From NCBI GenBank assembly GCA_029742005.1, contig GCA_029742005.1_4113.1: a stretch of DNA of 64,000 nucleotides. The stretch is one strand, 5' to 3'. Every line of letters starts with the position of its first letter. Position 1 is the first letter of the stretch. The translations under genes were made by a program, and so were the position numbers. Positions 14,410 through 28,844 of this stretch are shown piece by piece. This DNA is from a phage. The notes under the pieces are model-generated. The model saw nothing but the letters and a program-made list of their open reading frames with translations, was not told the origin of the DNA and did not search any database.

Positions 14410-14478
14410 ATTTCCTCCTTATTCATTATACTATATTTAATACAAATAAGAATGCCAGTATCAAGTACTGGCATTATG

Positions 14479-15588
14479 TTATTTTGGTAAATCAATTTTA
14501 GTAAAGACTGCAACATCCTCGATTGCACCTGGAATGGCGTAATACGATCCAGTACTATACACATCTCCATTTTTGGTTAATATCGATGTCAAACCATCAC
14601 TAAAAAGAACATCCCTAATCTCACTAACTTCAACGGGTAATTGTAAATTGGTAGCACTATATATAGCACCAGTTTGAGAATTGTTTAATCCCAAACCACG
14701 GTTCGCCCCAACACCCTTCTGATATGTACTAGTAATTACCATTTGTGTAGCAGTATTTAAGGCAGGTGAATTCGTCATAAACAACGGAGAACTATTAGGC
14801 AAAGTACTTACAGGAACGGCACGGAATGTAGTCGTGCCTGAACTAAGAAAGTTTGGAGTTTGACCACATACGAAATATGATGTACCATTATAGTAATTGA
14901 ATGCATTACCACCAATGGCTGCATCGATTACACCAGAACTACGCAATCCCCAAGTGTTAATTTGTGTTTGGTTCCCCGTACCATGCTGTCCACTACTATT
15001 CCATCCAGAACTATATAGCTTATTATCTAATGTAAGATACATACTATCATTCGCATTGGTCATTACTTTACGAACGTTCGTAGCACATTGAGTTAATGTG
15101 TAAATTGATGAGGAACCAATACCCAAAGAACCACGATATCCATTATCTCCTGCACCATAGAGTACTGAATTAGTGCTAAGTACAAATATTAAACCATTTG
15201 TACATACAATATTAGCAATTTCACTTACTGGTATAGCATTGGTAAACCAATTAGTCCTTTCAACTAATACAGTACTGTAAGAAGTAGTTGTAGAAGATGA
15301 GAACCAGTACGTTTGACCTGATGTCCATATCGTATTATCATTTTTAATAATAACAAGTGTACGATCACCCACGAAAAAATTAGAAACATCTGCACTTACT
15401 AATATCCATGAAGATACCGTGTTGGTATTACCATTTCCAGATTCACCACCTTGATTTCTACCTATGTAATATAAATCATGTGAATCAGTCAATAAGAATT
15501 GACCTTGTGTAGAAGCACCAACTTTAATTATATTTTTAGGACCAGGTACAATATTTCCGTACTTAACCATTCTTGCAAAAGGTAACAT
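14479..15588 (-). CDS. RCC1-like repeat protein, MLPF family
   Basis: MLPFARMVKYGN start; 369 aa. Confidence 0.6.
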   Translation of the reverse strand: MLPFARMVKYGNIVPGPKNIIKVGASTQGQFLLTDSHDLYYIGRNQGGESGNGNTNTVSSWILVSADVSNFFVGDRTLVIIKNDNTIWTSGQTYWFSSSTTTSYSTVLVERTNWFTNAIPVSEIANIVCTNGLIFVLSTNSVLYGAGDNGYRGSLGIGSSSIYTLTQCATNVRKVMTNANDSMYLTLDNKLYSSGWNSSGQHGTGNQTQINTWGLRSSGVIDAAIGGNAFNYYNGTSYFVCGQTPNFLSSGTTTFRAVPVSTLPNSSPLFMTNSPALNTATQMVITSTYQKGVGANRGLGLNNSQTGAIYSATNLQLPVEVSEIRDVLFSDGLTSILTKNGDVYSTGSYYAIPGAIEDVAVFTKIDLPK

Positions 15589-15598
15589 AATTCTCTCC

Positions 15599-16729
15599 TT
15601 AATTTAATAATGCCCCTGGCAAATCCACTTTGACGAATTGTGCATATGCTGAGGAATTTTGATCAAAGTTTGGTCCCAATCCATAAAATGAGCTAATGCC
15701 GTCTTCATTTGTGTATATGATATAAACGTTCTTTACATCATTTCCGCATATAAATCGAATGTCTTTCGTTTGTGTTCCCGCTGGAACATTACGAAGGTTC
15801 ACAACGCCATTACTTGCATTGTTATCAGCCGACGCAATTGGTAATTGATTTTGACCATATTGACCACGCATATTTTTTGCATCTAAACCAAACACAGTAT
15901 TTGATACCGCACCAACTTTCAAAAATGAACCAAAACTATTATTGAATGACTTTGGAAATGTACCACTATAAACACTTCTCCCATCTGATAATACCGCTGA
16001 ACTGAATTTCCCGTTATTCGATATGGCAAATTCATTGTAAGGAAGTGTACCCATTTTGGTATATACAGAATATGAATTAGTGGAAGTATTATCAATAATC
16101 TTATTACCATTATATCCAATACCATACTGGTATCCGTCTGCATCTTGAACTATACACAAAGGACCACTTGGGGTTTGTGTCAACGAAACAACACGTTCAA
16201 CTTGTATATCACCAAATGTATTTCTTCGCCATGTTCTATCTATTATAGTACTAGTATTACCCAAAGATAATTCCACACTATATAATAGATTGTTTTCAGT
16301 AAAAATGGCAACATAATATGCGTGGTTAATAACTTGCTTCATCCCAGCATCAATAACTTCCTGTGGAATATGATCAGTAACATCCAACCAATCAAGGTTA
16401 GATGATGCAATATCTGGAGTACTGAATTTGTCAAATCTAGTTGAGCCACAAACTAGCACTCTATCATCATTTGTCAAAGCCACTGTGCTAGTCTGCATAT
16501 TAGAACTGAATGATTTAACATTACTAATGTTAGACTTGTACCAACCCTTATCAGCAGCACCCACCGTGAATCCGGTTCCCATTGATCCACTTGTACTTGT
16601 ACCATAAGCCCACATCTCACCACTATATGTTAGTGCCATACAGTGGCTTCCATTTGCTTGGAAATCCTTTATACCAGTGGGAGCAACCACTGTATTCCCA
16701 TAATCAAACATTCTAACAAAAGGTAACAT
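15599..16729 (-). CDS. RCC1-like repeat protein, MLPF family
   Basis: MLPFVRMFDYGN after GGAGAT; track start MEILV is the SD region. Confidence 0.6.
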   Translation of the reverse strand: MLPFVRMFDYGNTVVAPTGIKDFQANGSHCMALTYSGEMWAYGTSTSGSMGTGFTVGAADKGWYKSNISNVKSFSSNMQTSTVALTNDDRVLVCGSTRFDKFSTPDIASSNLDWLDVTDHIPQEVIDAGMKQVINHAYYVAIFTENNLLYSVELSLGNTSTIIDRTWRRNTFGDIQVERVVSLTQTPSGPLCIVQDADGYQYGIGYNGNKIIDNTSTNSYSVYTKMGTLPYNEFAISNNGKFSSAVLSDGRSVYSGTFPKSFNNSFGSFLKVGAVSNTVFGLDAKNMRGQYGQNQLPIASADNNASNGVVNLRNVPAGTQTKDIRFICGNDVKNVYIIYTNEDGISSFYGLGPNFDQNSSAYAQFVKVDLPGALLN

Positions 16730-16804
16730 AACTAAAATCTCCATATAATAATTATAATGTATTTACAAAAAAATACCAGTACATATTTCAGTACTGGCAT
16801 TTTG

Positions 16805-17932
16805 TTAAAATGGTAAATCTATTTGTTTAGTAAATGTCATACTTAGTGGTATTGAACACATTGACGCATTTCTCCCATTTAAATTGGACGGAGGCTGTCC
16901 GTTCATCCATATATTGGTATCGTCGTAAAAAGTACTCCACCACGTAGAACCTTCCGTATGAAGATTAATATTAAAATCAGGGAATTGACATTCTTGAAAA
17001 ACATCAAAAAACGGGATAGATGATACACTACTACCAGTAAATGGAGTGTAGCCTGTTGACATTAATTTATTAGTATCCGAATTTACCAAAAAGATAACAG
17101 AACCAGTATTGAATGGTGAATATTTTGGATACAAATTACTCATATCACCGATAGTGAAGTTGATATCAAATATTTTACTATGCTTACCAGTTCCTGAAAG
17201 TGTAGTACCAGTTACATATATTTTATTATCAGTTGTTCCCATGACAAACCCAATTCCAAATCCCACACAAAATGTTATGTCATATGGTATATTATCAAAG
17301 AGTGGGACAAACGTTGTGGCATCACCAGTAGTAGCTTTTATTTGATAGCTATTATTTGCCCCAGCACCCCAAACAGTACCATTTGATTTCACTTTGAATA
17401 TACTATCTCCTATGTAGTGACCGTATATACTATCAACTTCAGTATCAAGTTTTGTCCATTGTGATACAAAGTTTTTATGCCCTAAACCTAAACAACCATT
17501 GCGGTTTAGTCCCCTGCCGTATAGTGTACCATCATTCATCAGTACAAATGTTGTGTATCCACAAAGCATTTTTTTGATTTGTGTAACATCAATACCAGCA
17601 AAAAAACCACTCCAATCAGTATATCCTTGTTGGATTGCGTTTGATTTGGTGAATGACATAGTTGGTCCTGAACCATATATTTTACCATCTTTTATAATCA
17701 CTGAATAAGAACCTAACCATACATCTTGAACATTCTCACTAATTGTTTTCAATTCACCATATGCAGAGAATGGAGTACTTTGCCCTGCACTATATGATGA
17801 ATCTTCACCGTGTGCATATAATGTTCCATTTTCTGTTAGAATCATTTCCAAATATACACAATTGACAATTTTCTTTATTTTATTAACTTCTATTTTATTT
17901 CCGTACGCTAACATCCTTGCAAAAGGTAACAT
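16805..17932 (-). CDS. RCC1-like repeat protein, MLPF family
   Basis: MLPFARMLAYGN; YGRGLNRNGCLGLGH repeat. Confidence 0.6.
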   Translation of the reverse strand: MLPFARMLAYGNKIEVNKIKKIVNCVYLEMILTENGTLYAHGEDSSYSAGQSTPFSAYGELKTISENVQDVWLGSYSVIIKDGKIYGSGPTMSFTKSNAIQQGYTDWSGFFAGIDVTQIKKMLCGYTTFVLMNDGTLYGRGLNRNGCLGLGHKNFVSQWTKLDTEVDSIYGHYIGDSIFKVKSNGTVWGAGANNSYQIKATTGDATTFVPLFDNIPYDITFCVGFGIGFVMGTTDNKIYVTGTTLSGTGKHSKIFDINFTIGDMSNLYPKYSPFNTGSVIFLVNSDTNKLMSTGYTPFTGSSVSSIPFFDVFQECQFPDFNINLHTEGSTWWSTFYDDTNIWMNGQPPSNLNGRNASMCSIPLSMTFTKQIDLPF

Positions 17933-18007
17933 AACTAAAATCTCCATATAATAATTATAATGTATTTACAAAAAAATACCAGCACATATTTCAGTACTGG
18001 TATAATG

Positions 18008-19180
18008 TTATGGTAAAATAATAGCTTGTAACGAACTCATACCCAATGTTGGAACACTCGCCTGTGGTGCTGGTGCATTCACTTTTGGTGATGAAACCGC
18101 ATAAGTCATTCCTGTACCCAAATCTGGATCAAAAACTACAGAACAATAATCCCCATTGTATATAAGTCCATTAGTATATCCTTGTACACTTTGAATGCAT
18201 TTCGTGAACGTACCAATGTCAGTAGTGGCATTTATTAAGTTCCTCCCACGGTAGCCACATGTGTATATGAAATTATCATCACCTATGTACATACTCGCAT
18301 TCCCAGAAGAACTACATAGATAAGACATATAAGCACGCATGTTTTTAGGAGCAACTGACAATGTACCAGCATAGAATTTATTATTCATACCCGAAATATC
18401 ACCATCACCCAAAGCACCAAAACTCCCCCAACCAGTACCATAATATCTCTTATCACTCAAGAATATAATACAGTTGTTATTACACATCTTGACTTGATAT
18501 ATCAATGAAGGATCAACCCCAGGGAATGATTCAGTGTATGTTAGAACAGCCAGATCAGTACTGGCATTACATTGATGATATGTATTAGTACCAGCGGACA
18601 ATATTGTACCATCAACTAATAGAATCCTCGAAGTGCCAGTACCAGCAATACAAGCAACAGCATTACCTGTATATATTTTTCTGAAAGTAAAGAAACCAAC
18701 AGTCTTACTCCCCTGTCCACTCCAACCAGTATTATCAACACCACATGCCCATACTGAACCATCTTGCATGATCATCATTACACCATAGCGTTCTATCGAA
18801 ATATAGACAATCTTCGTAGTATCAACTGCACTAAATCTAGAAGTTATATCAGTCCAAACCTTTACACTCACCGCCGTCGCACCGAAAGTAGGATCTTCCC
18901 CTGCTATCATTATCCTACCATTGTTAGTCAGATACATTGTCTGACTATAACCAGTACTACAAAACTTAACACTATCAGTCTCTGGAACTTTTAACCACTC
19001 GTTGTAACGTGTTACGTTAGTGTTATTATCTAACTGATAATAGTTATTCATCCCAGATACATATAACACACCATCCTTTATTAAACTATAAGTCGCACTA
19101 TAGTCACTACAGGTATAACGTGTACCCACAGGTCGCTCAACGACGTTCCCATATTCTAACATCCTTACAAAAGGCAACAT
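18008..19180 (-). CDS. RCC1-like repeat protein, MLPF family
   Basis: MLPFVRMLEYGN; no clear SD; start uncertain. Confidence 0.5.
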   Translation of the reverse strand: MLPFVRMLEYGNVVERPVGTRYTCSDYSATYSLIKDGVLYVSGMNNYYQLDNNTNVTRYNEWLKVPETDSVKFCSTGYSQTMYLTNNGRIMIAGEDPTFGATAVSVKVWTDITSRFSAVDTTKIVYISIERYGVMMIMQDGSVWACGVDNTGWSGQGSKTVGFFTFRKIYTGNAVACIAGTGTSRILLVDGTILSAGTNTYHQCNASTDLAVLTYTESFPGVDPSLIYQVKMCNNNCIIFLSDKRYYGTGWGSFGALGDGDISGMNNKFYAGTLSVAPKNMRAYMSYLCSSSGNASMYIGDDNFIYTCGYRGRNLINATTDIGTFTKCIQSVQGYTNGLIYNGDYCSVVFDPDLGTGMTYAVSSPKVNAPAPQASVPTLGMSSLQAIILP

Positions 19181-19221
19181 AACTAAATACCAGAACATAT
19201 TTCAGTACTGGTATCGTAGCG

Positions 19222-20364
19222 TTAAAATGGCATCTTAACCTCTTTATATACTAATATATCACCGGATAAACCAGGAAACGCAGAACCATTACCACATGCA
19301 TATATAGTACTGTCATTCCACGCCGCTTGATGGTAATTACCTATAGTACATTTATAATTCGATAAATCAGTCACACCAGGTGTTAGTACATAATATACTG
19401 GTCCACTAGGTAAATTAAAATCAAATCTACCAAAGTAGTTCAAACCAGATGAATAGGACTTGTCATTAGCAAATATTACAGTACCATCTTCTGTAAAAGA
19501 ACTGTGAGAAATGTCTTTGAGATTGTTCACAACACCAGACGGTATTGATGTATTCAACGTAAAGGACGTCAATGGTGCTGCACTCGGTGTGTTGTTCGCC
19601 GTGTAACCATAATATGCATAACCAGCTACATATACACTCGAATCTGAACAAAATAAAAATGCACTCCTATAACCCAACCTAATACTCTCTATAGTCTTAC
19701 TAAAAGTAACTTTAGTAAAGGTAGGAACTAAACCACTATATCCTACCCCACATGTACCAAAATCATTCTTCCCAGTACTGTACAATTCGTTATTATTTGT
19801 AAGGTAAAATGACGCAGCAGCACCGCTATCTAAAGTACTGTAAACGTCTTTTACATTACTCGCAATCAATTTAAATGCACTCAATACGGTAGCCGAACCA
19901 TTGTTAGACAGCGTTGTTGAATCCGTGCCTTGTCCTATTGTATATAAATCTCCAGTACTAGTCAAAACAAATATACCATTAGTCGCCATAACAATTCTGT
20001 CATTCTTTAAATTAAATGAACTAAAAAGTGTACTTATATCAGTAAAGGTAGTATAACGCCCACTCTGCCCTATACTCGATAAATTCCCACTCAAATAAAC
20101 CTTATTATCATTACCAACAGCTACATAACAACCCCACCCAGCATATATCTGATCAATGCCTTGTATCGGTATTTGTAACCATTCACTACCAGTTACCGAA
20201 GCAGTACTTCCAGTTCCAAGTTCACCAGAGTTATTAGCTCCGAATACATATAAATTCCCACTATCCGATAAAACAACTGTATTACCAACTCCAGTTTTTA
20301 TATCCTTGATACCATTCTTAGGAGCAACATTCCCATAATCAAACATTCTAACAAAAGGTAACAT
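19222..20364 (-). CDS. RCC1-like repeat protein, MLPF family
   Basis: MLPFVRMFDYGN; RBS GGAGGGAAAT. Confidence 0.6.
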   Translation of the reverse strand: MLPFVRMFDYGNVAPKNGIKDIKTGVGNTVVLSDSGNLYVFGANNSGELGTGSTASVTGSEWLQIPIQGIDQIYAGWGCYVAVGNDNKVYLSGNLSSIGQSGRYTTFTDISTLFSSFNLKNDRIVMATNGIFVLTSTGDLYTIGQGTDSTTLSNNGSATVLSAFKLIASNVKDVYSTLDSGAAASFYLTNNNELYSTGKNDFGTCGVGYSGLVPTFTKVTFSKTIESIRLGYRSAFLFCSDSSVYVAGYAYYGYTANNTPSAAPLTSFTLNTSIPSGVVNNLKDISHSSFTEDGTVIFANDKSYSSGLNYFGRFDFNLPSGPVYYVLTPGVTDLSNYKCTIGNYHQAAWNDSTIYACGNGSAFPGLSGDILVYKEVKMPF

Positions 20365-20436
20365 ATTTCCCTCCTTTATTCATTATACTATATTTAATCA
20401 AAAATAAAAGCCAGTACTTGAGTACTGGCATAGTAT

Positions 20437-21564
20437 TCAAAAAGGTAAATCAATTTGCTTAGTAATAATAGTATCTAACGGTATTGAACACAATGAGAAA
20501 TTCTTTCCACCCGTATTTTCAGGATTATATCCATTCATCCATACATTATTACCTTCGTAAAATGTATTCCAGTATAAAGCCCCACTATATCGTGTATTCG
20601 AATTGAACGATGGAAAGTTGAATTCTTGGAATGATGTAAAATATGGAATGGAACTTGAACTACTTCCCGTAAATGGGGTATACCCAGTTGCTATTAGTTT
20701 GTTTGTATCTGCATTAATTAAAAATACAACACTAGTCGAATAGTCCAACGAATCAGGATGATATATATTACTCATATCACCTATAGTAAAACCAACATCA
20801 AAAACTTTACTATGTGCACCACTACCAGCAAAAGTAGTTCCAGTTGCATATATTTTATTATCAGATGTTATCATTACAAAACCAACACCAGAAACAAAAC
20901 TGCATTTTATATCATAAGATATATCATCAAACAACGGAACAAATGTGGTTGCATCACCCGATGTTGCTTTAACTTGAAAGCTGTTATTTGAACCTGAACC
21001 ATATACAGTTCCATCGTTTTTAATCTTAAACAATGTATCGCCAAGGTAACCGCCAAATATATTATCCACATTAGTGTCAAGTACAGTCCACGCTGAAACA
21101 TAATTTTTATGTCCTAAACCTAATGCACCACTTCGATTCCATCCTCTTCCATAAAGTGTTCCGTCTTTCATTAATATAAATGCTGTATAACCACATAACA
21201 TTTTTTTAATTTGGGTAACATCTATACCAGTGAAATACACAGCCCAGTCAGTATATCCTTGTTGGAAAGTATCAGAATTCGTGAATGCATATGTTGGACC
21301 TGAACCATATATTTTATCACCTTTAATAACAACGGAAAACAATCCTAACCATAAGTCATCAACTTCAGTTGTGATTTGTTGAACTGCTCCTAACGATACA
21401 AACTTTGTACTTAAACCCGCATTATAGTTTGAATCTTCACCGTGTGCATATACAGTGCCATCTTGCATTAGAAACATTTCAAGAGTGCCACTAACAACAC
21501 TTTTCTTTATATTATTAACTTCGATTATATTCCCATAATCAAACATTCTAACAAAAGGTAACAT
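20437..21564 (-). CDS. RCC1-like repeat protein, MLPF family
   Basis: MLPFVRMFDYGN; YGRGWNRSGALGLGH repeat; closest paralog of 16805-17932. Confidence 0.6.
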   Translation of the reverse strand: MLPFVRMFDYGNIIEVNNIKKSVVSGTLEMFLMQDGTVYAHGEDSNYNAGLSTKFVSLGAVQQITTEVDDLWLGLFSVVIKGDKIYGSGPTYAFTNSDTFQQGYTDWAVYFTGIDVTQIKKMLCGYTAFILMKDGTLYGRGWNRSGALGLGHKNYVSAWTVLDTNVDNIFGGYLGDTLFKIKNDGTVYGSGSNNSFQVKATSGDATTFVPLFDDISYDIKCSFVSGVGFVMITSDNKIYATGTTFAGSGAHSKVFDVGFTIGDMSNIYHPDSLDYSTSVVFLINADTNKLIATGYTPFTGSSSSSIPYFTSFQEFNFPSFNSNTRYSGALYWNTFYEGNNVWMNGYNPENTGGKNFSLCSIPLDTIITKQIDLPF

Positions 21565-21636
21565 AATTCCCTCCTTTATTCATTATACTTTATTTAATAC
21601 AAATAAGAATTCCTGTATCGAGTACTGGCATTCAAT

Positions 21637-22785
21637 TTATTGTAAAAAGGACATATCTACTTCTGTATAACTAAGAATGTTTTGACCAGCAATTCCACCC
21701 ATTACTACTATTGCATACCCACAATAATATAATTTCCCAGTGTCCGTAAGTATAAGTGAACCAGAAGGTGTTCTTACCAAATTACACGAACTATTAAAAG
21801 AAGTATACGAAGGAGTATAGGAGTACTGATTAATATTATTACCAACACCTAATTGACCACCCCTATTCGAACCAGATGCATAAAGTACTTCATCTGCTTT
21901 GACAATATGTGATGCCATGTTAGCAACACATGCATATACACCATATACCCCTGTACTCAATAATGTAGGAGTCTTGTATTGAATATCAGTACTAGTAGAT
22001 GTTCCACCTGTGCCAAATTCATTACCATATTGTGCTCCGTACTGCTTCCCACATGCGTACAAATTATTATCCGATTTGATAAAAAATGTACTCTGATAAC
22101 TTACATCAAAATCTATAACATCCGAAGAAATCATCGTTACCCCAGTAATCGAAGTTTGATTACCAGTACCCAACTGGTAGTAATAGTTAAAACCACAACC
22201 CCATAAAGTATTATCTTCTTTTAGGTATATGTTACCAACTGCCTTTTTAACCGAAGTTATAGTATCTACCCTTTTGAATGTGTTAAAAGAATTAATGTTT
22301 GTACCATCACCAAATGATGATAGGTTCGAGTTATTGTTAACTCCACAACAATACAACGTACCATCGTTTGTTATCAAATTCACCTTCATATCATTAAAAC
22401 TACTCATGTATTTTATATCAGAAACATTAATACCACCTGATGTTATCCATGTAGTACAGTCCGTCCATAACGTCTTCCTATCAGTTACCCCAGTAAATGC
22501 CTTCGTGTTACCAGTGATAAACACTTTACCAGTACCCTTTTCTTCATACAATTGACAATCACTACTGTTATCTTCCAATAAAACCCTCTGTACATTCTCT
22601 GCACAAAGAATAAATTTACTCGATGCTACACCTGTTCCAGTACCCCAATTCGTCGCAGAAGATGCATACAACTTATGTGTTAGTGTATCATGCAAATACA
22701 TAGAACCACTAGAATATATTTTAAAACGCCCAGAGTTGGTAGGTGCTTCATTCCCATAATCAAACATTCTAACAAAAGGTAACAT
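21637..22785 (-). CDS. RCC1-like repeat protein, MLPF family
   Basis: MLPFVRMFDYGN after AAAGGAGGAAAT; track start MNKGGN covers the SD. Confidence 0.6.
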   Translation of the reverse strand: MLPFVRMFDYGNEAPTNSGRFKIYSSGSMYLHDTLTHKLYASSATNWGTGTGVASSKFILCAENVQRVLLEDNSSDCQLYEEKGTGKVFITGNTKAFTGVTDRKTLWTDCTTWITSGGINVSDIKYMSSFNDMKVNLITNDGTLYCCGVNNNSNLSSFGDGTNINSFNTFKRVDTITSVKKAVGNIYLKEDNTLWGCGFNYYYQLGTGNQTSITGVTMISSDVIDFDVSYQSTFFIKSDNNLYACGKQYGAQYGNEFGTGGTSTSTDIQYKTPTLLSTGVYGVYACVANMASHIVKADEVLYASGSNRGGQLGVGNNINQYSYTPSYTSFNSSCNLVRTPSGSLILTDTGKLYYCGYAIVVMGGIAGQNILSYTEVDMSFLQ

Positions 22786-22827
22786 ATTTCCTCCTTTATT
22801 CATTATATCATATTTACCCCATAACCC

Positions 22828-22856
22828 TTGACATCCTTTCAGTACTGGTGTACTAT
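22828..22856 (+). promoter_or_regulatory. promoter TTGACA-17-TACTAT heading the 22.9-26.9 kb array
   Basis: Consensus -35, 17-nt spacer containing CAGTACTG. Confidence 0.5.
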
Positions 22857-22881
22857 AGAAGGAATATAAGGAGAACTACAC

Positions 22882-23109
22882 ATGACAGCTACACTTAAGT
22901 ACTACATTAATACTCTAAATGAACTAGAGTACGGTAAGTTTCTCGCGGATTGTTCGTGGCTAATAGAGCTAAAAACACATAACAGTACTGGATGTAACCT
23001 TATGCTGAACAATGCACTTGATACCCTTGTAGTGAGTATTTTACACAGCAACATCTGCGGGAATAGCAATAAACAATTATCAAAAATCTTAGTACTGGTA
23101 GCTATATGA
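22882..23109 (+). CDS. small hypothetical protein (family B-like)
   Basis: RBS TAAGGAG; 75 aa. Confidence 0.5.
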   Translation: MTATLKYYINTLNELEYGKFLADCSWLIELKTHNSTGCNLMLNNALDTLVVSILHSNICGNSNKQLSKILVLVAI

Positions 23110-23318
23110 ACACTATGAACATTAAACAGTACTACATCGATGCACTACCAACAAAAGGTCTACGAGAAAGCCTACTGTATACACAAAATAATTTTATACA
23201 CTACAAACGTTATCCTAAACTCCTGAACTCGTACAGGAATAATAACATAAGAAATGCTTTACAAGGGGTAGAAAGTATGCAATACTATTACATCCTTACC
23301 CTTTTAATCGAGTACTAA
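23106..23318 (+). CDS. small protein, family B
   Basis: ATGA overlap; MNTMNIKQYY.., C-terminus LTLLIEY. Confidence 0.5.
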   Translation: MNTMNIKQYYIDALPTKGLRESLLYTQNNFIHYKRYPKLLNSYRNNNIRNALQGVESMQYYYILTLLIEY

Positions 23319-23319
23319 T

Positions 23320-23505
23320 ATGTATAAAGAATTCTACTGTAGTAAGCTGCACAAGCAATACCGAGATTCATTCCCCAATGAACCTATGGACATGAATAGT
23401 CCATTTTATAAATTTGACTTCAGACTGGAGACACGTTATGCAATAGAACATCAATTTCCTGAAACTAAGTACTTATCTATCATGAACCTCATCTTTAAGT
23501 TCTAA
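23320..23505 (+). CDS. small protein, family B
   Basis: 61 aa, tightly packed. Confidence 0.45.
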   Translation: MYKEFYCSKLHKQYRDSFPNEPMDMNSPFYKFDFRLETRYAIEHQFPETKYLSIMNLIFKF

Positions 23506-23516
23506 AAGAGTACTAT

Positions 23517-23729
23517 ATGAAAACTATGAACATTCATCAGTACTACTTAGATATTCTCCCTAAAGATGTGCAGAACATCCTTAAACAAGAATTCAGTACT
23601 TTAAAAAACCTTAAAAGATCCGCACCGAATGTACTCATCCTGCACCAAATAAATGTAGTTGATAATATTCTACAAGGTGTACCAGGAACCGAGTACTTTA
23701 ATATAGTAAGGCTAATTACATTACAATGA
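23517..23729 (+). CDS. small protein, family B
   Basis: MKTMNIHQYY.., paralog of 23106. Confidence 0.5.
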   Translation: MKTMNIHQYYLDILPKDVQNILKQEFSTLKNLKRSAPNVLILHQINVVDNILQGVPGTEYFNIVRLITLQ

Positions 23730-23911
23730 ATCATATAAGCTACTATTACCAAAAACTATCCGACCGAGACAAGTACAGCCACAACTCCCATGTATGGTAC
23801 TACAAACGCGGTAGTATAAGGGACAAACAACATTACTTCTGTACTGCTATAAAAGAAAAACTAACAACTAAGTACACGTACAGAGCAGTACTGAAACTTA
23901 TTGATATGTAA
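23726..23911 (+). CDS. small protein, family B
   Basis: ATGA overlap; C-terminus KYTYRAVLKLIDM. Confidence 0.5.
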   Translation: MNHISYYYQKLSDRDKYSHNSHVWYYKRGSIRDKQHYFCTAIKEKLTTKYTYRAVLKLIDM

Positions 23912-23921
23912 AGAGAATACT

Positions 23922-24107
23922 ATGAATACATTTGAGTACTATACAAATAAACTATCTATGCCAGAAAGATCTCATCTCTATGTGTGGAGAAATGCGTATA
24001 AAAGCGGCAATAAACTTATACAAAGAAATTCCCTTACAGTGTGTACAAATTTAATTAAAGCAGAGTACCGCACATATATTGAAGTACTGAAACTAATCTC
24101 TATCTAA
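23922..24107 (+). CDS. small protein, family B
   Basis: RBS AAGAGA; C-terminus EYRTYIEVLKLISI. Confidence 0.5.
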   Translation: MNTFEYYTNKLSMPERSHLYVWRNAYKSGNKLIQRNSLTVCTNLIKAEYRTYIEVLKLISI

Positions 24108-24115
24108 GGTACTCT

Positions 24116-24295
24116 ATGCAAGAATTCTATATCTATAAACTTCAGCACAAAGATAGATACAACTATAATAAATTCCAAAGGTACTACACAGTCGGGAACA
24201 AAAGAGATAAAAAACGATACTTTCTATCATGTACAGTAGAAGCACAAAACGAAAAGTACACGTACAGAGAAGTACTGAAACTCATCTCAATCTAA
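24116..24295 (+). CDS. small protein, family B (59 aa)
   Basis: RBS TAAGG; C-terminus KYTYREVLKLISI; missing from ORF track. Confidence 0.5.
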   Translation: MQEFYIYKLQHKDRYNYNKFQRYYTVGNKRDKKRYFLSCTVEAQNEKYTYREVLKLISI

Positions 24296-24303
24296 GGAAT
24301 AAT

Positions 24304-24483
24304 ATGCAAGAATACTATATAGAACACATAAGCATTAAAGACCGTTTCATGTACGACACCTTCGTGAAGTACTACAACCTGGCAACTAACAGTACTAAAA
24401 ATATTAATCTCAATAGCTGCATTCATCAGGCACTAACAAAAGATAATCCCTTCAGGGAAATCCTCGCTCTCGCATCTGTATAA
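24304..24483 (+). CDS. small protein, family B
   Basis: RBS TAAGGAA; MQEYYIEH.. Confidence 0.5.
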   Translation: MQEYYIEHISIKDRFMYDTFVKYYNLATNSTKNINLNSCIHQALTKDNPFREILALASV

Positions 24484-24494
24484 AGGAATCTAAT

Positions 24495-25154
24495 ATGAAA
24501 CTTAATGCACACAGTAAACAATACCTTAAGCACTTTAAGTACCTCAACAGTATTCAAGCAGAATCTTTTACACCAACATATACTTACGACCCGTGTGTAC
24601 TAAAGAAACGAAATAAAAAGAAAAAATCCAGAAATGTTCTCGTATCTAAGAACCTCAAATCGTACTTGAAGAAAAATAATATAGCTCTTGCTTTTATTAA
24701 TATCTATAATACTGATTTAAAAGTATTGAGTACTAATACCAGCACAAAAGCACTAAAGAATGCATCTATCTATATACACATGGATAATATCCCGTGTACT
24801 ATAATTCTATCTTTCGGGAATGTATACTTCTTCGGGAATTGTAATAGCACCCATGATATCAGTACTGCACAATTCCAAATCGGCGATATGTACTGCATGG
24901 GTTCAGAAAAAATACACGATAACATGCACTTCTTCCAAAAGCAACGTACTAACGAAACTGATACAGTACTGCAATTCCTCAAAGAATTACAAGGCAAAGA
25001 ATTATCAGAAGAAGATCTATTCATGTACAGTACTGTAATCGATAATCCAGAACTCTATAAAAACGCGTACAATCTAACAAAACATGTACAGGAACTTATC
25101 AGTACTGATAAGAAATTTCATCACCTCATTACGTATATTTCAAACTATGTATAA
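24495..25154 (+). CDS. hypothetical protein (219 aa) inside small-gene array
   Basis: RBS AAAGGAA; Lys-rich N-terminal region. Confidence 0.55.
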   Translation: MKLNAHSKQYLKHFKYLNSIQAESFTPTYTYDPCVLKKRNKKKKSRNVLVSKNLKSYLKKNNIALAFINIYNTDLKVLSTNTSTKALKNASIYIHMDNIPCTIILSFGNVYFFGNCNSTHDISTAQFQIGDMYCMGSEKIHDNMHFFQKQRTNETDTVLQFLKELQGKELSEEDLFMYSTVIDNPELYKNAYNLTKHVQELISTDKKFHHLITYISNYV

Positions 25155-25329
25155 AGAATACTACAAAGATAAAATCCCAATGCATCTACAACACCATATA
25201 CCAAACGTTGCATTGGGTATCAAAGATCACGCAAAGATAATGTTCCAACAATGTACTAAGTACACGCTCATATACGATGATAATCCATATATGCTGTACT
25301 ACGTAGTAATGCTAACATTCAGGTACTAA
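25147..25329 (+). CDS. small protein, family B
   Basis: MYKEYYKD.., C-terminus VVMLTFRY. Confidence 0.5.
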   Translation: MYKEYYKDKIPMHLQHHIPNVALGIKDHAKIMFQQCTKYTLIYDDNPYMLYYVVMLTFRY

Positions 25330-25330
25330 T

Positions 25331-25510
25331 ATGAATACTTATAAAGAATTCTACCTCTCGTACCTTAATTCCGATATAGTAACATCCAATACATTCAGTA
25401 CTAAAATTATCTATAATGAATTAATGAAAGAATGTATTAACGGTGCTATTAACCCTAAAGATACGTATGACTTGTACTATGCAGTACTAACCCTTGTTTT
25501 CACGAAATAA
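25331..25510 (+). CDS. small protein, family B (59 aa)
   Basis: MNTYKEFY.., C-terminus LTLVFTK; missing from ORF track. Confidence 0.5.
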   Translation: MNTYKEFYLSYLNSDIVTSNTFSTKIIYNELMKECINGAINPKDTYDLYYAVLTLVFTK

Positions 25511-25518
25511 CACATAAT

Positions 25519-25710
25519 ATGAATAACCACAAAGAATACTACATAGAGAAACTCCCAATGTATCTCCAACACCTTGTACCAACAGAACCATTGGGTATAG
25601 AAAAAAACTACGAAAAAGACTACTTCATTCAGTGCACTAAATCCTCGATATATATTGAAGACTATAATCGAGTACTGTATCACATCCTTTTACTAATATA
25701 TAGGTACTAA
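25519..25710 (+). CDS. small protein, family B
   Basis: MNNHKEYYIEKLPMYLQH.., C-terminus LLLIYRY. Confidence 0.5.
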   Translation: MNNHKEYYIEKLPMYLQHLVPTEPLGIEKNYEKDYFIQCTKSSIYIEDYNRVLYHILLLIYRY

Positions 25711-25711
25711 T

Positions 25712-25894
25712 ATGCACAAAGAATACTACACACAATTTCTCCCCAGCATTTTTGAACACTACGCCAGATACAAAGTCCCTATGGATAACGATTTGGCAGT
25801 ACTGGGATTCAATAACTGCATAGAACGAAGTATAGAAAATAGTAGTAGTTATGACCAGCTATATAACACTATCCTACTTATATTCAGGTACTAA
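25712..25894 (+). CDS. small protein, family B
   Basis: MHKEYYTQF.., C-terminus ILLIFRY. Confidence 0.5.
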   Translation: MHKEYYTQFLPSIFEHYARYKVPMDNDLAVLGFNNCIERSIENSSSYDQLYNTILLIFRY

Positions 25895-25895
25895 T

Positions 25896-26081
25896 ATGCA
25901 TAAAGAATACTACACACAATTTGTTAAAGGGAACTACAAACATGCCGTACCCAGAACCCCTTTAAATTCTCATGACCCAAGTACTATATTCTTGTTTAAT
26001 GACGCAATACGTACAGTACTCAATACTAAAGATGAAGATGTGCAGTACGTATTCTTACTATTACTTATATACAGACACTAA
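25896..26081 (+). CDS. small protein, family B
   Basis: MHKEYYTQF.., C-terminus LLLLIYRH. Confidence 0.5.
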   Translation: MHKEYYTQFVKGNYKHAVPRTPLNSHDPSTIFLFNDAIRTVLNTKDEDVQYVFLLLLIYRH

Positions 26082-26086
26082 CTAAT

Positions 26087-26296
26087 ATGAATAAAGAACA
26101 TAAAGAATTCTACTCCAAATACATAAGCCCCTCAGAACAAATGTTTCTAAGGACTACTCCACCTTTAAGTACTAATACATTTTTCGGCAGAGTATGCTAC
26201 AATAATTGTATTCAAATGACTTTAAACGCAAACGAAGATGGTAACAGTACTAACCTGTACTCAGGTATCATAGGTATACTATTCCTGTATGAATAA
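26087..26296 (+). CDS. small protein, family B
   Basis: MNKEHKEFY.. Confidence 0.5.
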   Translation: MNKEHKEFYSKYISPSEQMFLRTTPPLSTNTFFGRVCYNNCIQMTLNANEDGNSTNLYSGIIGILFLYE

Positions 26297-26477
26297 TTAC
26301 AAAGACTTCTATTTGAATACACTACCTACTGTACTTTCTCTAAGTGCTCAATGTAAAATCCCGCTGGATAATGCTTACGCCAGATATAGCTATTCCATAA
26401 CTGTTAATCGATGTATAGAGAATCATTGCAGTACTAACCAGTACTATAACATAATCCTACTTATATTCAGGTACTAA
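26289..26477 (+). CDS. small protein, family B
   Basis: MNNYKDFY.., C-terminus ILLIFRY. Confidence 0.5.
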   Translation: MNNYKDFYLNTLPTVLSLSAQCKIPLDNAYARYSYSITVNRCIENHCSTNQYYNIILLIFRY

Positions 26478-26478
26478 T

Positions 26479-26625
26479 ATGAATAAAGAACATAAAGAAT
26501 TCTATATACGAAAACTAACATTCGTCCCCGTAAGAATATATAAAGAATGCGACCCAAGATTATACCTATGGCACTTCAATGAGTGCATAAAAGATTCTAT
26601 ATACCATAAGAACTATAAAGAATAA
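26479..26625 (+). CDS. small protein, family B (48 aa, possibly truncated)
   Basis: MNKEHKEFY.. N-terminus; short; missing from ORF track. Confidence 0.35.
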   Translation: MNKEHKEFYIRKLTFVPVRIYKECDPRLYLWHFNECIKDSIYHKNYKE

Positions 26626-26676
26626 TTGTGCTCAGTACTAACACTAGTACTATCATATTAATTAATAGAGAATACT

Positions 26677-26868
26677 ATGTATAAAAACTTCTATATAAGT
26701 AAACTAAAAGAAAATGAACAAGTATGGATTAGATCTATAATTCCACTGGCATTTAATAGATATGCATTTAACAGATGTACCGAGATTGCTATAGACCCTT
26801 ATAATATTAAAGAGAATGTACAGTATAATCAGTACTACTATATCTTAATGCTTATATATAGAAAGTAA
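26677..26868 (+). CDS. small protein, family B
   Basis: MYKNFYISKL.., C-terminus LMLIYRK. Confidence 0.5.
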   Translation: MYKNFYISKLKENEQVWIRSIIPLAFNRYAFNRCTEIAIDPYNIKENVQYNQYYYILMLIYRK

Positions 26869-27506
26869 TTAAACACAAGTAGACAGGGGAAGCTCCTAGT
26901 GAACAACCTTTATGTACAGGCGAATTGTTAAAATTCAGCCTGGACAAATGCGATCACTAGGATTCTCCCCAGGCTAAACCCCGTAATCATAGGTAGTCAT
27001 AAGTAATCATATATAAACATTTATATGAGCACCGTAGAATCACAGAATGATTATATATGATTCAGTACTGATTAGTATAGACAAGATTGCTCAAGAATGC
27101 ACGGAAATGTGTGTGAATGATTCAGTACTGATATCCCACTAAGTAGGCAGAGGAAGTCTGCCGTACTTTTTAGTTTCCAAGCTCCTTTTCCATTTTTCAA
27201 ATTACATCAAATGTAATCAAAAGTAATCACGCAATGATTAGTACTGAATTATTACTTTCACCTTAATTTCAATGACCCCTTTACCCTTCGGGGTAAAATT
27301 CCATTACCCCTTGAGGCTCCAGCAAAAAGTTGGTTAGTACTCCATCCTAAATCTCGATCCTAAAAATTTTGGAGTACCTATGAAATAAAAGTTGGATCTT
27401 CGAAAGTTGAAATTTACGTTGGGACGTTTATGATTTGTGGGATATAATGATGTTTGTAGTCGGGTAGTTCTCAAGAATATCAGTACTGAATAATGAAAGA
27501 AAGCTA

Positions 27507-27534
27507 TTGACATTATGATTCAGTACTGTATAAT
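27507..27534 (+). promoter_or_regulatory. promoter TTGACA-16-TATAAT in non-coding region
   Basis: Consensus hexamers; no protein ORF downstream. Confidence 0.5.
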
Positions 27535-27540
27535 GTTCTA

Positions 27541-27655
27541 CATAGCTTCAAGGGGTGATGAGTTGCTGCGAACAATTCATTTACTCTACCTCCTGTCGTG
27601 AGACAGTACAGAAAAGATAGTTCCTCCTGTGGTGGTACATCTTTTTGAACCTCAT
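27541..27655 (+). ncRNA. candidate small non-coding transcript
   Basis: Promoter upstream, no credible ORF, T-run near 27650. Confidence 0.25.
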
Positions 27656-27726
27656 ATGAAAATCGTAATAACAGTACTGATATTAACAGAATGGTGTCAG
27701 TACTGATTTTAATCTAAAGCATTATG

Positions 27727-27746
27727 CCACCAGCACAAGCTGGTGG
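27727..27746 (+). repeat. inverted Chi octamers forming hairpin CCACCAGC-ACAA-GCTGGTGG
   Basis: Perfect 8-bp inverted repeat whose arms are the E. coli Chi octamer and its complement. Confidence 0.6.
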
Positions 27747-27889
27747 ATTCCCTCTAACAGTATTCAGTACTACATGATAGTCTTCATCCTCCTAGGGTAA
27801 CATAGTGAGGGCTATGATGGCAGTACTGAATACTCCCTTTCAAAAGATAGATCTATGGTATAGTACTGACGGATTTTGGGCGTAGTTAC

Positions 27890-28060
27890 CCTGGATGGAT
27901 TTTGGACGTAGATATGTCTAGCCCTCCAGAAGTCTGGAAGTAAAGATGGCTATCCATCTAGACGGCTAAACGGCTAGATTTCTGGATGGCTGGATGGCTA
28001 GACGTTTGGACGGCTAAACGGCTAGATGGTTACACGTCTGGAAGTATAGACGGCTAAATC
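27890..28060. repeat. iteron-like direct repeat cluster
   Basis: GACGGCTAAACGGCTAGAT at 27961 and 28009, partial at 28049; TCTGGAAGTA twice; palindrome AGATGGCTATCCATCT. Confidence 0.6.
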
Positions 28061-28816
28061 AAAATTTTATTTTGTTTTTTCCAATAGTTCCCCTACCGCG
28101 TGGGGATAGTTTCCCCGCAGTATCTGGAGTTAGATTTTTCTGAATCTGGAATCATTATCTTATAAACTGGGGGCAATGTCAACCGCCTGGACGGATATTT
28201 TTAAAAATTTTTTCAGTACTGAATTTTGGGCGTAACTATGCACCCGGTGGGCTATAGTCTTTCTCGACTTGATGGAACTATTATACAGTACTGAAAAAAT
28301 AAAGCAATACCCTGGAAGCAAAAAAGTTTTAATTAATTTGCTTGCCATCCTGGGCCGTACTATGGTACTATATTTCAGTACTGAGAAAGTGCGTTTACCT
28401 GCTAGGGTGCGGGAGTGTATCCTTTTTTTATATCTTGAATTTTGGGCGTAATTCCGCACCCTCTGGGGTTTCCGCTTTCTCGCGTCTATGTAGTAATTAT
28501 ACGCTTTTTCAGGATCAAGTCAATACCTAAAAACAAAATAATTGAAAATAATTTAACGCGTTTAAACGGCCCGTAACGCCCTGGAATGATTGGAATGGTG
28601 CAAATGTATAGCTTAGGTGTATTAATGCGTTAGAATGCGTCTGAGGCCGTTTTACGGGGTATGGGGATGATTTAGTGGATTGATTCAGTACTGAATGATA
28701 GTACTACTATATAGAAAGATAGTTCCCCTGGATGGTTGCAGTACTGAATGATAGTACTGAATAATAGTTCCCCTATATAGAAAGAAAACTATTTTAAAAG
28801 TATTTGTAGAAAGTAC

Positions 28817-28844
28817 TTGCAAACTATGTTTAACGGCGTATAAT
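28817..28844 (+). promoter_or_regulatory. promoter TTGCAA-16-TATAAT followed by 5' stem-loop at 28856-28877
   Basis: First PeSL-like unit of the 28.8-45.3 kb region. Confidence 0.6.

What the first reader, a model, noticed from the sequence alone, without database searches (positions are those of the whole stretch)
22882..26868. Tandem array of 18 ORFs, 17 of them small (48-75 aa), forming a divergent family
Seventeen small ORFs plus one 219-aa ORF are packed head-to-tail, often with ATGA stop/start overlaps. Many share an N-terminal M-x-K-E-[YF]-Y and a hydrophobic C-terminus ending LLIFRY, LLIYRH, MLIYRK or VLKLISI. Three members under 60 aa (24116-24295, 25331-25510, 26479-26625) are missing from the ORF track and were found by reading the sequence. 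A 4 kb run of ORFan paralogs with no recognisable domain is typical of a hyperplastic accessory locus.
Basis: seen in the sequence. Interest (0 to 1): 0.55.

Follow-up and report, generated by a model that had tools for sequence, protein, structure and literature searches.

The report
Variable small-protein gene array, jumbo coliphage
This is a real, tightly packed operon of about 17 tiny, related but highly diverged helical-protein genes in a 121Q-like giant E. coli phage; related phages carry different subsets of the same gene cassettes, which fits a variable host-interaction locus, but the proteins' function is unknown.

Summary
ORFs cover 97% of the + strand of 22882-26868 (shuffles: 4%), and substitutions against orthologues show purifying selection (pN/pS 0.35). 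The window is an Asteriusvirus (121Q/PBECO4-like) jumbo phage.

Sixteen of the 17 small ORFs form one superfamily with three subfamilies: A (2 genes), B (4) and C (10, = phrog_11711, function unknown). o01 is a borderline member. The 219-aa o09 is unrelated. o17 is truncated by a single CAA>TAA change.

The C-type model is a confident soluble four-helix domain with no informative fold match. No member has a membrane segment.

The array has one conserved sigma70-like promoter and one terminator, and the cistrons are translationally coupled. The conserved C-terminal Arg-Tyr-stop (AGG TAC TAA) also supplies the next gene's Shine-Dalgarno.

Nine relatives keep the same architecture but carry 16-23 genes, drawn from at least 29 orthologue groups, none duplicated within a genome. 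Cassette indels break inside conserved junction repeats. The family occurs only in this phage lineage.

Best reading: an early, non-virion battery of diversified small binders, shuffled by unequal recombination. The function is inferred, not shown. This is a new member of a known kind, of moderate-low interest.

The parts
22828..22856 (+). Sigma70-like promoter of the array: TTGACA, 17-nt spacer containing the palindrome CAGTACTG, then TACTAT
   Evidence: Consensus scan, 10 of 12 matches. Sequence read. Nearly invariant in 8 relatives. Same class as the promoters at 4190, 27507, 31412 and 44147.
22868..22873 (+). AAGGAG Shine-Dalgarno of the first cistron (o01)
   Evidence: Sequence. Conserved in 8 relatives.
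22882..23109 (+). o01, 75 aa. First gene, universal in relatives. A borderline distant member of the family.
   Evidence: Present in 9 of 9 phages. hhalign A versus o01: P 1.6e-3 over 61 columns, score 20.9 against shuffled 9.9 +/- 1.9.
23106..23318 (+). o02, 70 aa, subfamily A (group A1). ATGA overlap with o01.
   Evidence: blastp against o04: 1.6e-9. Orthologue-group map.
23320..23505 (+). o03, 61 aa, subfamily C (group C1, universal)
   Evidence: phrog_11711, 2e-15. Orthologue-group map.
23517..23729 (+). o04, 70 aa, subfamily A (group A2)
23726..23911 (+). o05, 61 aa, subfamily B (group B1, universal). Basic, pI 9.6.
   Evidence: blastp against o07: 3.6e-13..
23922..24107 (+). o06, 61 aa, subfamily B (group B2). 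The start is revised from the TTG at 23901.
24116..24295 (+). o07, 59 aa, subfamily B (group B3)
24304..24483 (+). o08, 59 aa, subfamily B (group B4, universal). The start is revised from 24229.
24495..25154 (+). o09, 219 aa. An unrelated ORFan (phrog_29152) at a fixed position between the B block and the distal C block in every relative.
   Evidence: phrog_29152, 1e-113. Homologues only in this phage group. No profile similarity to A, B or C. The AlphaFold2 model is unusable, pLDDT 37.
25147..25329 (+). o10, 60 aa, subfamily C (group C2). The start is revised from 25084. 8-nt overlap with o09.
   Evidence: phrog_11711, 3e-22..
25331..25510 (+). o11, 59 aa, subfamily C (group C3)
   Evidence: phrog_11711, 2.4e-5..
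25519..25710 (+). o12, 63 aa, subfamily C (group C4)
   Evidence: phrog_11711, 6e-28.
25712..25894 (+). o13, 60 aa, subfamily C (group C5). This is the protein that was modelled.
   Evidence: phrog_11711, 2e-24. AlphaFold2 pLDDT 89.5, four helices.
25896..26081 (+). o14, 61 aa, subfamily C (group C6, universal). The start is revised from 25851. Groups C11-C13, present in most relatives, are missing between o13 and o14.
   Evidence: The indel breakpoint lies in the junction repeat.
26087..26296 (+). o15, 69 aa, subfamily C (group C7)
26289..26477 (+). o16, 62 aa, subfamily C (group C8). 8-nt overlap with o15.
   Evidence: Whole-cassette indel relative to BF17.
26479..26661 (+). o17 (group C9). 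It is 48 aa as read (26479-26625) because of a CAA>TAA change at 26623. The remnant 26626-26661 still encodes the lost last helix, LCSVLTLVLSY*. Probably a pseudogene or a sequencing error.
   Evidence: The orthologue is 60 aa in the 7 other phages that carry it. Nucleotide alignment.
26677..26868 (+). o18, 63 aa, subfamily C (group C10, universal). Last gene of the array.
   Evidence: phrog_11711, 7e-24..
26885..27020 (+). Conserved non-coding 3' block, including a long predicted hairpin at about 26886-26971
   Evidence: A 54-nt core is identical in 8 relatives. The fold of 26869-27175 has z = -5.0. No Rfam match.
27146..27172 (+). Intrinsic-terminator-like hairpin GGCAGAGGAAGTCTGCC followed by a T-run. 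The likely 3' end of the operon.
   Evidence: The hairpin is conserved in 8 of the 9 aligned relatives and degraded in A4.

Best explanation
SHOWN.
- The region is one translationally coupled operon in an Asteriusvirus (121Q/PBECO4-like) jumbo phage. It has one conserved sigma70-type promoter, 18 cistrons spaced -8 to +11 nt apart (plus a 51-nt spacing created by the o17 truncation), and one terminator.
- Sixteen cistrons encode members of a single lineage-restricted superfamily of proteins about 60 aa long, with three subfamilies (A, B, C).
- For the C type the predicted structure is a soluble four-helix domain. The scaffold is conserved (N-terminal KEYY, hydrophobic core, C-terminal L-x-LI-x-x-Y) and nearly every other position is hypervariable.
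- Each paralog is old (25-45% identity to its neighbours) and is kept under purifying selection.
- Related phages carry different subsets (16-23 genes) of a pan-repertoire of at least 29 cassettes, in the same order.
- Gain and loss occur as whole cassettes, in register. The breakpoints lie in the conserved junction DNA, that is, the end of one gene plus the start of the next. This indicates unequal homologous recombination.
- The junctions are dual-use: the C-terminal Arg-Tyr-stop (AGG TAC TAA) supplies an AGGT Shine-Dalgarno 6 nt before the next ATG.

INFERRED.
- The operon is transcribed early by host RNA polymerase.
- Its products are non-structural.
- They act as a battery of small protein binders, each aimed at a different host target or target variant (host takeover or counter-defence). 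The cassette repertoire would then be an adaptive, strain-specific trait.
For: Coding and selection: ORF coverage 97% against 4% in shuffles. Substitutions by codon position 345/233/490 and pN/pS 0.35.

Homology: (A-C and B-C P about 1e-5, scores about 11 sd above column-shuffled controls).

Structure: AlphaFold2 pLDDT 89.5, four helices. No 19-residue stretch hydrophobic enough for a membrane segment. Conserved scaffold with a hypervariable surface.

Operon: the promoter, SD and terminator are conserved. Intergenic distances across nine genomes. AGG is used for the C-terminal Arg in 39 of 51 genes (7 of 8 orthologue groups), against 15% elsewhere in the same genes and 11% in the window's long ORFs, Fisher p = 4e-19.

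Variability: architecture and orthologue-group map. The window is a mosaic, with its left half BF17/EcMJ-like and its right half JP4/phAPEC6/SD15-like. It is a divergence hotspot relative to its flanks. Junction repeats include a perfect 32-mer. Four indels (385, 191, 196 and 190 nt) all break in junction repeats.

Early and non-structural: the array promoter is of the same sigma70-type class that precedes other small-gene clusters. Most of the neighbouring virion-associated RCC1-like genes instead carry their own terminator hairpin and a T4-late-like TATTAAATA / TGTAAATA box. The phAPEC6 virion mass spectrometry lists the flanking gp549 and gp551 but none of gp540c-548c, although it did detect a 4.7-kDa protein (PMC7247149).

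Against: There is no direct evidence of expression, timing, target or phenotype.
- The promoter is only a consensus match. Such matches are not enriched in this region overall (32 found, 36 expected).
- The palindrome in its spacer also occurs upstream of late-looking RCC1-like genes and inside coding regions, so the regulation may not be simply 'early'.
- Only one C-type member was modelled. The folds of A and B are inferred from profile homology.
- Small proteins are easily missed by virion mass spectrometry.
- Five small groups are universal in the nine phages, which would also fit a conserved housekeeping role.
Confidence: 0.5

Rival explanations
1. The small proteins bind nucleic acid or act as regulators, for example as nucleoid or DNA-compaction factors or as modulators of transcription or translation, and are not binders of diverse host proteins.
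For: Three of the four B-subfamily members are strongly basic (pI 9.6, net charge +5 to +7; B4 is near neutral, pI 6.7). Subfamily A is basic (pI 9.2-9.4) and o09 is basic (pI 9.2, +9). The array lies next to a conserved, ORF-poor control region dense in promoters and palindromes.
Confidence: 0.15
2. The small proteins are chaperones, adaptors or partner subunits for the adjacent RCC1-like beta-propeller proteins, which are virion-associated. The two neighbouring arrays would then co-evolve as a host-range module.
For: The two arrays are divergently arranged and share a 78-bp control region. Together they form one divergence island at 19.4-26.6 kb relative to JNE01. RCC1-like gp549 and gp551 are virion proteins (PMC7247149).
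Against: The promoter types differ: sigma70-like for the array, and terminator plus late-like box for most RCC1-like genes. The numbers do not pair up (10 RCC1-like genes against 16-17 small genes in this window). The small proteins were not detected in virions. Co-variation between the two arrays is confounded by physical linkage and was not tested independently.
Confidence: 0.1
3. The array is functionless filler left by tandem duplication during genome expansion of a jumbo phage, tolerated because the capsid has spare capacity.
For: Hua et al. proposed tandem duplication as a route of jumbo-phage genome growth and noted a large tandem array in 121Q (PMC5646251). The window has three tandem arrays. 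One member (o17) carries a nonsense mutation.
Against: Purifying selection acts on the genes (pN/pS 0.35, third-position excess). Reading frames are intact across nine or more genomes despite 25-45% divergence between paralogs. No group is recently duplicated within a genome. The promoter, SD and coupling signals are conserved.
Confidence: 0.07
4. The ORFs are spurious and the region is non-coding repeat DNA or an RNA locus.
For: GC skew on the putative coding strand is atypical: -0.32 at third positions, against about 0 to +0.2 in other genes. Many public annotations omit many of these ORFs.
Against: ORF coverage is 97% against 4% in shuffles. The substitution pattern follows codon positions. 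Homology is detectable at protein level where DNA no longer aligns. The structure prediction is confident. There are no Rfam hits.
Confidence: 0.01

Closest known systems
PHROG family phrog_11711 (function unknown)
   Same: The ten C-type ORFs of the window match this profile over its full length, with E-values from 6e-28 to 9.5e-4.
   Different: The PHROG has no functional annotation. At E <= 0.01 it does not capture subfamilies A or B, or o01. Profile-profile comparison here links A and B to C.
Hyperplastic regions (HPRs) of T4-type phages, with PeSL-mediated modular shuffling (Arbiol et al. 2010, PMC2839356; Comeau et al. 2014, PMC4122927)
   Same: Clusters of small, mostly ORFan genes whose content differs between close relatives. 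Indels and replacements arise by homologous recombination between short repeated motifs that flank the variable modules. Sigma70-like early promoters are involved (compared).
   Different: In HPRs the repeats are non-coding promoter plus stem-loop cassettes (PeSLs) between unrelated genes. Here there is one promoter and one terminator for the whole array. The genes are paralogs, and the recombination substrates are the coding termini plus the SD junction itself.
[quoted passage not shown]
   Same: A contiguous block of about two dozen small genes with features of highly expressed early genes, thought to act on diverse host processes.
   Different: The SPO1 genes are organised in several operons within the terminal region of the genome, and the paper read does not describe them as one paralogous family. 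Here the genes form one paralogous superfamily in a single operon. No toxicity or target data exist for this array.
Lineage-specific tandem expansions in jumbo phages (about 35 zinc-ribbon copies in phage G, PMC7824862; arrays of more than 30 genes in phages G and 121Q, PMC5646251)
   Same: A tandem array of paralogous small genes confined to one jumbo-phage lineage.
   Different: [quoted passage not shown] The present family is far more diverged, and I found no description of it in the papers searched.

Membership tests
phrog_11711 | Significant full-length match to the family profile HMM | tested here: met
   Met for o03 and o10-o18, with E-values from 6e-28 to 9.5e-4. Not met at E <= 0.01 for o01, o02, o04 and o05-o08.
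Single homologous superfamily comprising subfamilies A, B and C | Full-length, collinear profile-profile similarity well above composition-matched controls | tested here: met
   hhalign A-C: P 1.3e-5 over 61 columns. B-C: P 1.2e-5 over 53 columns. A-B: P 1.2e-3. Real scores are 29.8, 29.1 and 20.4, against about 9 +/- 1.8 for column-shuffled controls, with 0 of 60 shuffles reaching the real score.
Single homologous superfamily comprising subfamilies A, B and C | Inclusion of o01 (75 aa) and o09 (219 aa) | tested here: inconclusive
   o01 versus A: P 1.6e-3 over 61 columns, score 20.9 against 9.9 +/- 1.9. o01 versus B and versus C are at background level. o09 has no significant match to any subfamily, so o09 is excluded.
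T4-type hyperplastic region (HPR) | Gene content varies between closely related phages while the flanks are conserved | tested here: met
   16-23 genes in nine relatives, from at least 29 small orthologue groups, of which only 5 are universal. Against JNE01 only 19% of the array aligns, compared with 97% of the adjacent gap at 88.5% identity.
T4-type hyperplastic region (HPR) | PeSL cassettes (sigma70 promoter plus terminator stem-loop) between the variable genes, acting as recombination points | tested here: not met
   There is one promoter (22828-22856) and one terminator (27146-27162) for the whole array. No strong internal promoter or terminator pairs were found. Breakpoints lie in coding and SD junction repeats instead.
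Host-takeover / early-gene module (SPO1-type) | Expression early in infection from strong host-type promoters | tested here: inconclusive
   A conserved sigma70-like promoter and strong SD are present, and they contrast with the late-like boxes upstream of most RCC1-like genes. No transcriptomic data were found for this genus.
Host-takeover / early-gene module (SPO1-type) | Products inhibit or redirect host processes (toxicity, defined host target) | not testable with these tools
   This needs expression, toxicity and interaction experiments.
Anti-defence (anti-CRISPR-type) locus | Homology to a known anti-defence protein, or an associated HTH regulator (aca-like) | tested here: not met
   No Pfam or NCBIfam domain, including HTH, in any member or in o09. 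PADLOC, which covers defence systems and not anti-defence proteins, gave no hits. No dedicated anti-defence library was available, so homology to known anti-defence proteins was only indirectly excluded.
Small membrane proteins (holin, spanin or superinfection-exclusion type) | At least one transmembrane-length hydrophobic segment | tested here: not met
   The maximum 19-residue Kyte-Doolittle mean is <= 1.13 for every member. In the model the hydrophobic C-terminus is helix 4 of the predicted four-helix domain.
Virion structural proteins | Detection in purified virions | tested here: not met
   The phAPEC6 virion ESI-MS/MS table lists gp549 and gp551 (RCC1-like) but none of gp540c-548c (PMC7247149). 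The caveat is that small proteins are hard to detect.

The most novel reading that the evidence does not exclude
The array is a population-level cassette library. The conserved, dual-coding junctions (protein termini plus Shine-Dalgarno plus start codon) would be maintained partly because they allow in-register recombination, so that co-infecting phages can shuffle a pan-repertoire of dozens of hypervariable four-helix binders. Each cassette would neutralise a different host defence or surface-independent restriction factor. On this reading it is a coding-sequence analogue of PeSL shuffling and a phage counterpart of variable-effector arrays.
Probability: 0.15. Interest if true: 0.6.

Novelty: new member of a known kind. 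Interest (0 to 1): 0.35.

Why it matters
If the inferred role is right, this locus is a ready-made natural library of more than 29 tiny, stably folded, hypervariable proteins that a therapeutically relevant group of E. coli and Salmonella jumbo phages uses against its hosts. Each cassette would be a candidate inhibitor of a bacterial process or defence system, and the repertoire could help explain host-range differences between near-identical phages.

There are also two practical points. Public annotations miss many of these genes: BF17 and vB_Ec-M-J annotate about 11 of 23, and phAPEC6 9 of 19. And part of an apparent protein motif (the C-terminal Arg-Tyr) is actually a nucleotide-level signal for translational coupling, which is a caution for motif-based inference on overlapping or coupled small genes.

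Tried and rejected
- Pfam, NCBIfam, PADLOC and sequence searches of the PDB gave nothing for any member or for o09.
- The AlphaFold2 model of o09 was unusable (pLDDT 37), so o09 gave no functional clue.
- A possible family-like C-terminus in o09 was tested by hhalign and rejected.
- A single-sequence search of the 5.8-billion-protein database found only near-identical orthologues.
- No other family members exist elsewhere in the window (six-frame HMM search).
- The window has no tRNA or Rfam features.
- Literature searches found no description, transcriptomics or proteomics of this array.
- A membrane-protein reading was rejected: no transmembrane segment.
- A RiPP-precursor reading was considered and rejected, because both termini are conserved and the whole chain is predicted to fold.
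- A covariation test of the conserved 3' hairpin was inconclusive: only one G-C to G-U change in JNE01.

Full report
IDENTITY OF THE WINDOW. The region 22000-28000 matches 37 phage records at about 86-98% identity. Most of the listed records are complete genomes of 310-386 kb from Escherichia or Salmonella phages of the genus Asteriusvirus (121Q, PBECO4, BF17, JP4, phAPEC6 and others). The finding lies between ten tandem RCC1-like genes on the - strand (11204-22803) and an ORF-poor gap of about 2 kb (26869-28842).

CHECK OF THE OBSERVATION. All 18 ORFs are present as described. ATG-initiated ORFs of >=48 aa cover 97.3% of the + strand of 22882-26868. In 300 dinucleotide shuffles the figure is 3.9 +/- 4.1%, and on the - strand it is 15%. 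The paralog alignment shows that four longest-ORF starts are artefacts; the family-consistent starts are 23922, 24304, 25147 and 25896.

Comparison with orthologues in eight relatives gives 345, 233 and 490 substitutions at codon positions 1, 2 and 3, and a pooled pN/pS of 0.35. These are therefore real coding sequences under purifying selection, even though GC skew on the coding strand is unusual (third-position skew -0.32) and the composition is extreme (Tyr 10.8%, Gly 1.8%).

FAMILY STRUCTURE. All-against-all blastp resolves three subfamilies.
- A: o02 and o04 (E = 1.6e-9).
- B: o05-o08 (E down to 3.6e-13; C-terminus ...VLKLISI).
- C: o03 and o10-o18 (E down to 4e-15; MxKEYY ... LLIYRY).

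C corresponds to phrog_11711, function unknown; A, B and o01 have no PHROG match at E <= 0.01. I pooled members from nine genomes (11 unique A, 25 B and 66 C sequences). Profile-profile alignment then links A-C (P = 1.3e-5, 61 columns) and B-C (P = 1.2e-5) over the full length, and A-B more weakly (P = 1.2e-3). Real scores of 29.8, 29.1 and 20.4 compare with about 9 +/- 1.8 for column-shuffled profiles, with 0 of 60 shuffles reaching the real score, and with reversed profiles at background.

So 16 of the 17 small ORFs belong to one superfamily. o01 is a borderline relative of A (score 20.9 against 9.9 +/- 1.9). The 219-aa o09 (phrog_29152) is unrelated. o17 is 48 aa only because of a C>T change at 26623 (CAA>TAA). 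The downstream bases still encode the missing helix, and the orthologue is 60 aa in the seven other phages that carry it.

THE PROTEINS. AlphaFold2 on o13, with eight window paralogs as the alignment, gives a confident model (pLDDT 89.5) with helices at 2-7, 12-18, 27-42 and 47-59. No member has a hydrophobic stretch long enough to span a membrane, so the 'hydrophobic C-terminus' is a helix of the domain and not a membrane anchor.

Across the 66 unique C sequences the conserved positions are the N-terminal KEYY, a set of hydrophobic core positions, Pro23, the Cys/Thr in helix 3, and the C-terminal L-x-LI-x-x-Y. Most other positions approach 3 bits of entropy. Three of the four B members are basic (pI 9.6), and C members range from pI 5.0 to 9.3.

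OPERON ANATOMY. A sigma70-like promoter, TTGACA-tccttt-CAGTACTG-gtg-TACTAT (22828-22856), and an AAGGAG SD precede o01. Both are almost invariant in eight relatives. A terminator-like hairpin with a T-run at 27146-27172 follows the last gene, and the hairpin is conserved in 8 of the 9 aligned relatives.

Across nine genomes the distance between one gene's stop and the next gene's start is almost always -8 to +19 nt. The commonest arrangement is TAA-T-ATG. An SD-like AGGT or TAAGG(A) lies 5-7 nt upstream of most starts.

The conserved C-terminal Arg-Tyr-stop reads AGG TAC TAA, which places AGGT six nt before the next ATG. The terminal Arg is AGG in 39 of 51 genes (7 of 8 orthologue groups). AGG accounts for 15% of Arg codons elsewhere in the same genes and 11% in the window's long ORFs (Fisher p = 4e-19). 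Part of the apparent protein signature is therefore a nucleotide-level signal for translational coupling.

COMPARATIVE GENOMICS. Nine relatives share the architecture o01-A-C-(A or C)-Bn-o09-Cn, but total gene number is 16-23. B ranges from 2 to 6 copies and the distal C run from 8 to 12. The more divergent JNE01 has the same layout with 17 genes.

Clustering at 65% identity gives 29 small orthologue groups. None is duplicated within a genome, the order is collinear, and only five small groups plus o01 and o09 are universal. This window lacks B5, B6 and C11-C13.

The nearest relative changes along the array. o01-o08 are 97-99% identical to BF17/EcMJ, and o12-o18 are 99-100% identical to SD15/phAPEC6/JP4. 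The array is therefore a recombinant mosaic.

The best-conserved DNA between paralogs is at the gene junctions, including a perfect 32-mer at 26081-26112 and 26473-26504. All four indels examined (385, 191, 196 and 190 nt) are whole cassettes whose breakpoints fall inside these junction repeats. This is direct evidence for unequal homologous recombination.

Against JNE01 only 19% of the array aligns at the DNA level (72% identity), whereas the adjacent non-coding gap aligns over 97% of its length at 88.5%. A sliding comparison shows a divergence island from about 19.4 to 26.6 kb. It covers the proximal RCC1-like genes and the whole array, and is flanked by DNA that is 80-99% identical.

DISTRIBUTION. 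An exhaustive profile search of 1.84 billion representative proteins found only 24 clusters, all about 60 aa long apart from one 41-aa fragment. The two most divergent clusters that I traced lie in the same syntenic array of JNE01-type phages. tblastn with A, B and C queries each hits 36 of 50,697 phage records, 32 Escherichia and 4 Salmonella phages in every case, and the listed hits are all 121Q/PBECO4-like jumbo phages. The hits often fall on stretches with no annotated gene. Public records annotate only part of the array, for example 11 of 23 genes in BF17 and 9 of 19 in phAPEC6.

EXPRESSION CLASS AND LOCATION OF THE PRODUCTS (INFERRED). Most of the ten RCC1-like genes are preceded by their own terminator hairpin (GCCAGTACT...AGTACTGGC plus a T-run). 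Eight of the ten carry a T4-late-like TATTAAATA / TGTAAATA-type box. The array has a single -35/-10 promoter of the class also found at 4190, 27507, 31412 and 44147, ahead of other small-gene clusters.

The phAPEC6 virion proteome lists the flanking RCC1-like gp549 and gp551 but none of the array products gp540c-548c (PMC7247149). Together these points suggest early, non-structural expression. I found no transcriptomic data for this genus.

INTERPRETATION. The following are well supported: a translationally coupled operon, one diverged superfamily of about 60-aa proteins (four-helix in the one C-type member modelled), cassette-wise variation by recombination at junctions, and restriction to one phage lineage.

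The function is inferred by analogy. Small, early, non-virion, hypervariable-surface proteins in a locus that diverges faster than its flanks are what is expected of host-takeover or counter-defence effectors. The comparisons are the SPO1 host-takeover module (PMC6873191) and T4-type hyperplastic regions, where indels arise by recombination between repeated PeSL motifs (PMC2839356, PMC4122927).

The differences from those systems are that the genes here are paralogs, they share one promoter, and the recombination substrates are coding and SD junctions, not promoter-terminator cassettes. The rival readings (nucleic-acid binders, partners of the RCC1-like proteins, functionless filler, non-coding DNA) are less well supported, for the reasons given under each.

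VERDICT. This is an uncharacterised family within a known kind of phage locus: scientifically useful but not surprising. Interest 0.35.

Noticed in passing
window, whole; dense at 27063-28746: The palindrome CAGTACTG occurs 61 times in 64 kb, against 0.83 expected, usually as TCAGTACTGA. It sits in the spacer of several sigma70-like promoters (4190, 22828, 27507, 31412, 44147, and 28307 on the - strand) and about 45 nt upstream of some RCC1-like genes, but it is also common inside coding regions. GTACT itself occurs at 5.7 per kb, about 5 times my own estimate from base composition. Possibly an operator, a modification site or a recombination-related site.
   Followed up: partly
window 26869-28842: An ORF-poor gap of about 2 kb that is better conserved than the neighbouring genes (88.5% identity to JNE01, against 19% alignable for the array). 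It contains a perfect sigma70 promoter (27507-27534) followed by a hairpin at 27672-27705, which would give a possible ncRNA of about 170 nt. It also has two strong - strand promoters (28523, 28182), 12 CAGTACTG copies, and iteron-like 8/16/24-nt tandem repeats at 27957-28056. The cumulative GC-skew minimum lies here. It is a candidate replication origin or regulatory hub. No Rfam match.
   Followed up: partly
window 26885-27020: A non-coding block immediately 3' of the array, with a 54-nt core identical in 8 relatives. It is predicted to form a long hairpin at about 26886-26971; the fold of 26869-27175 has z = -5.0. Only one G-C to G-U change was seen in JNE01, so covariation is untested.
   Followed up: partly
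window 45562-52043: A second, unrelated tandem array of 26 paralogous small genes (65-91 aa, + strand, frequent 4-nt overlaps, conserved G-T-N-Y-Q motif). [quoted passage not shown] 2017 (PMC5646251).
   Followed up: partly
window 11204-22803 (- strand): Ten tandem RCC1-like (WD40_RLD) paralogs. Most are preceded by a terminator hairpin GCCAGTACT-loop-AGTACTGGC plus a T-run, and eight of the ten by a T4-late-like TATTAAATA / TGTAAATA-type box. Homologues gp549 and gp551 are virion proteins in phAPEC6. The paralogs nearest the small-ORF array (19.4-22.8 kb) belong to the same divergence island relative to JNE01.
   Followed up: partly
window 22882-26868 compared with L001-L009: Public annotations of the same array are very uneven. 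JP4, 121Q, G17 and SD-15 annotate nearly all genes. BF17 and vB_Ec-M-J annotate about 11 of 23, phAPEC6 9 of 19, and CMSTMSU is riddled with frameshifts.
   Followed up: yes
window 22882-26868: The coding strand of the array has a strongly C-biased third codon position (GC skew -0.32), unlike other + strand genes (about 0). The proteins are 10.8% Tyr and only 1.8% Gly. On the + strand the sign of the skew matches that of the adjacent - strand RCC1-like genes, which hints at a regional mutational bias.
   Followed up: partly
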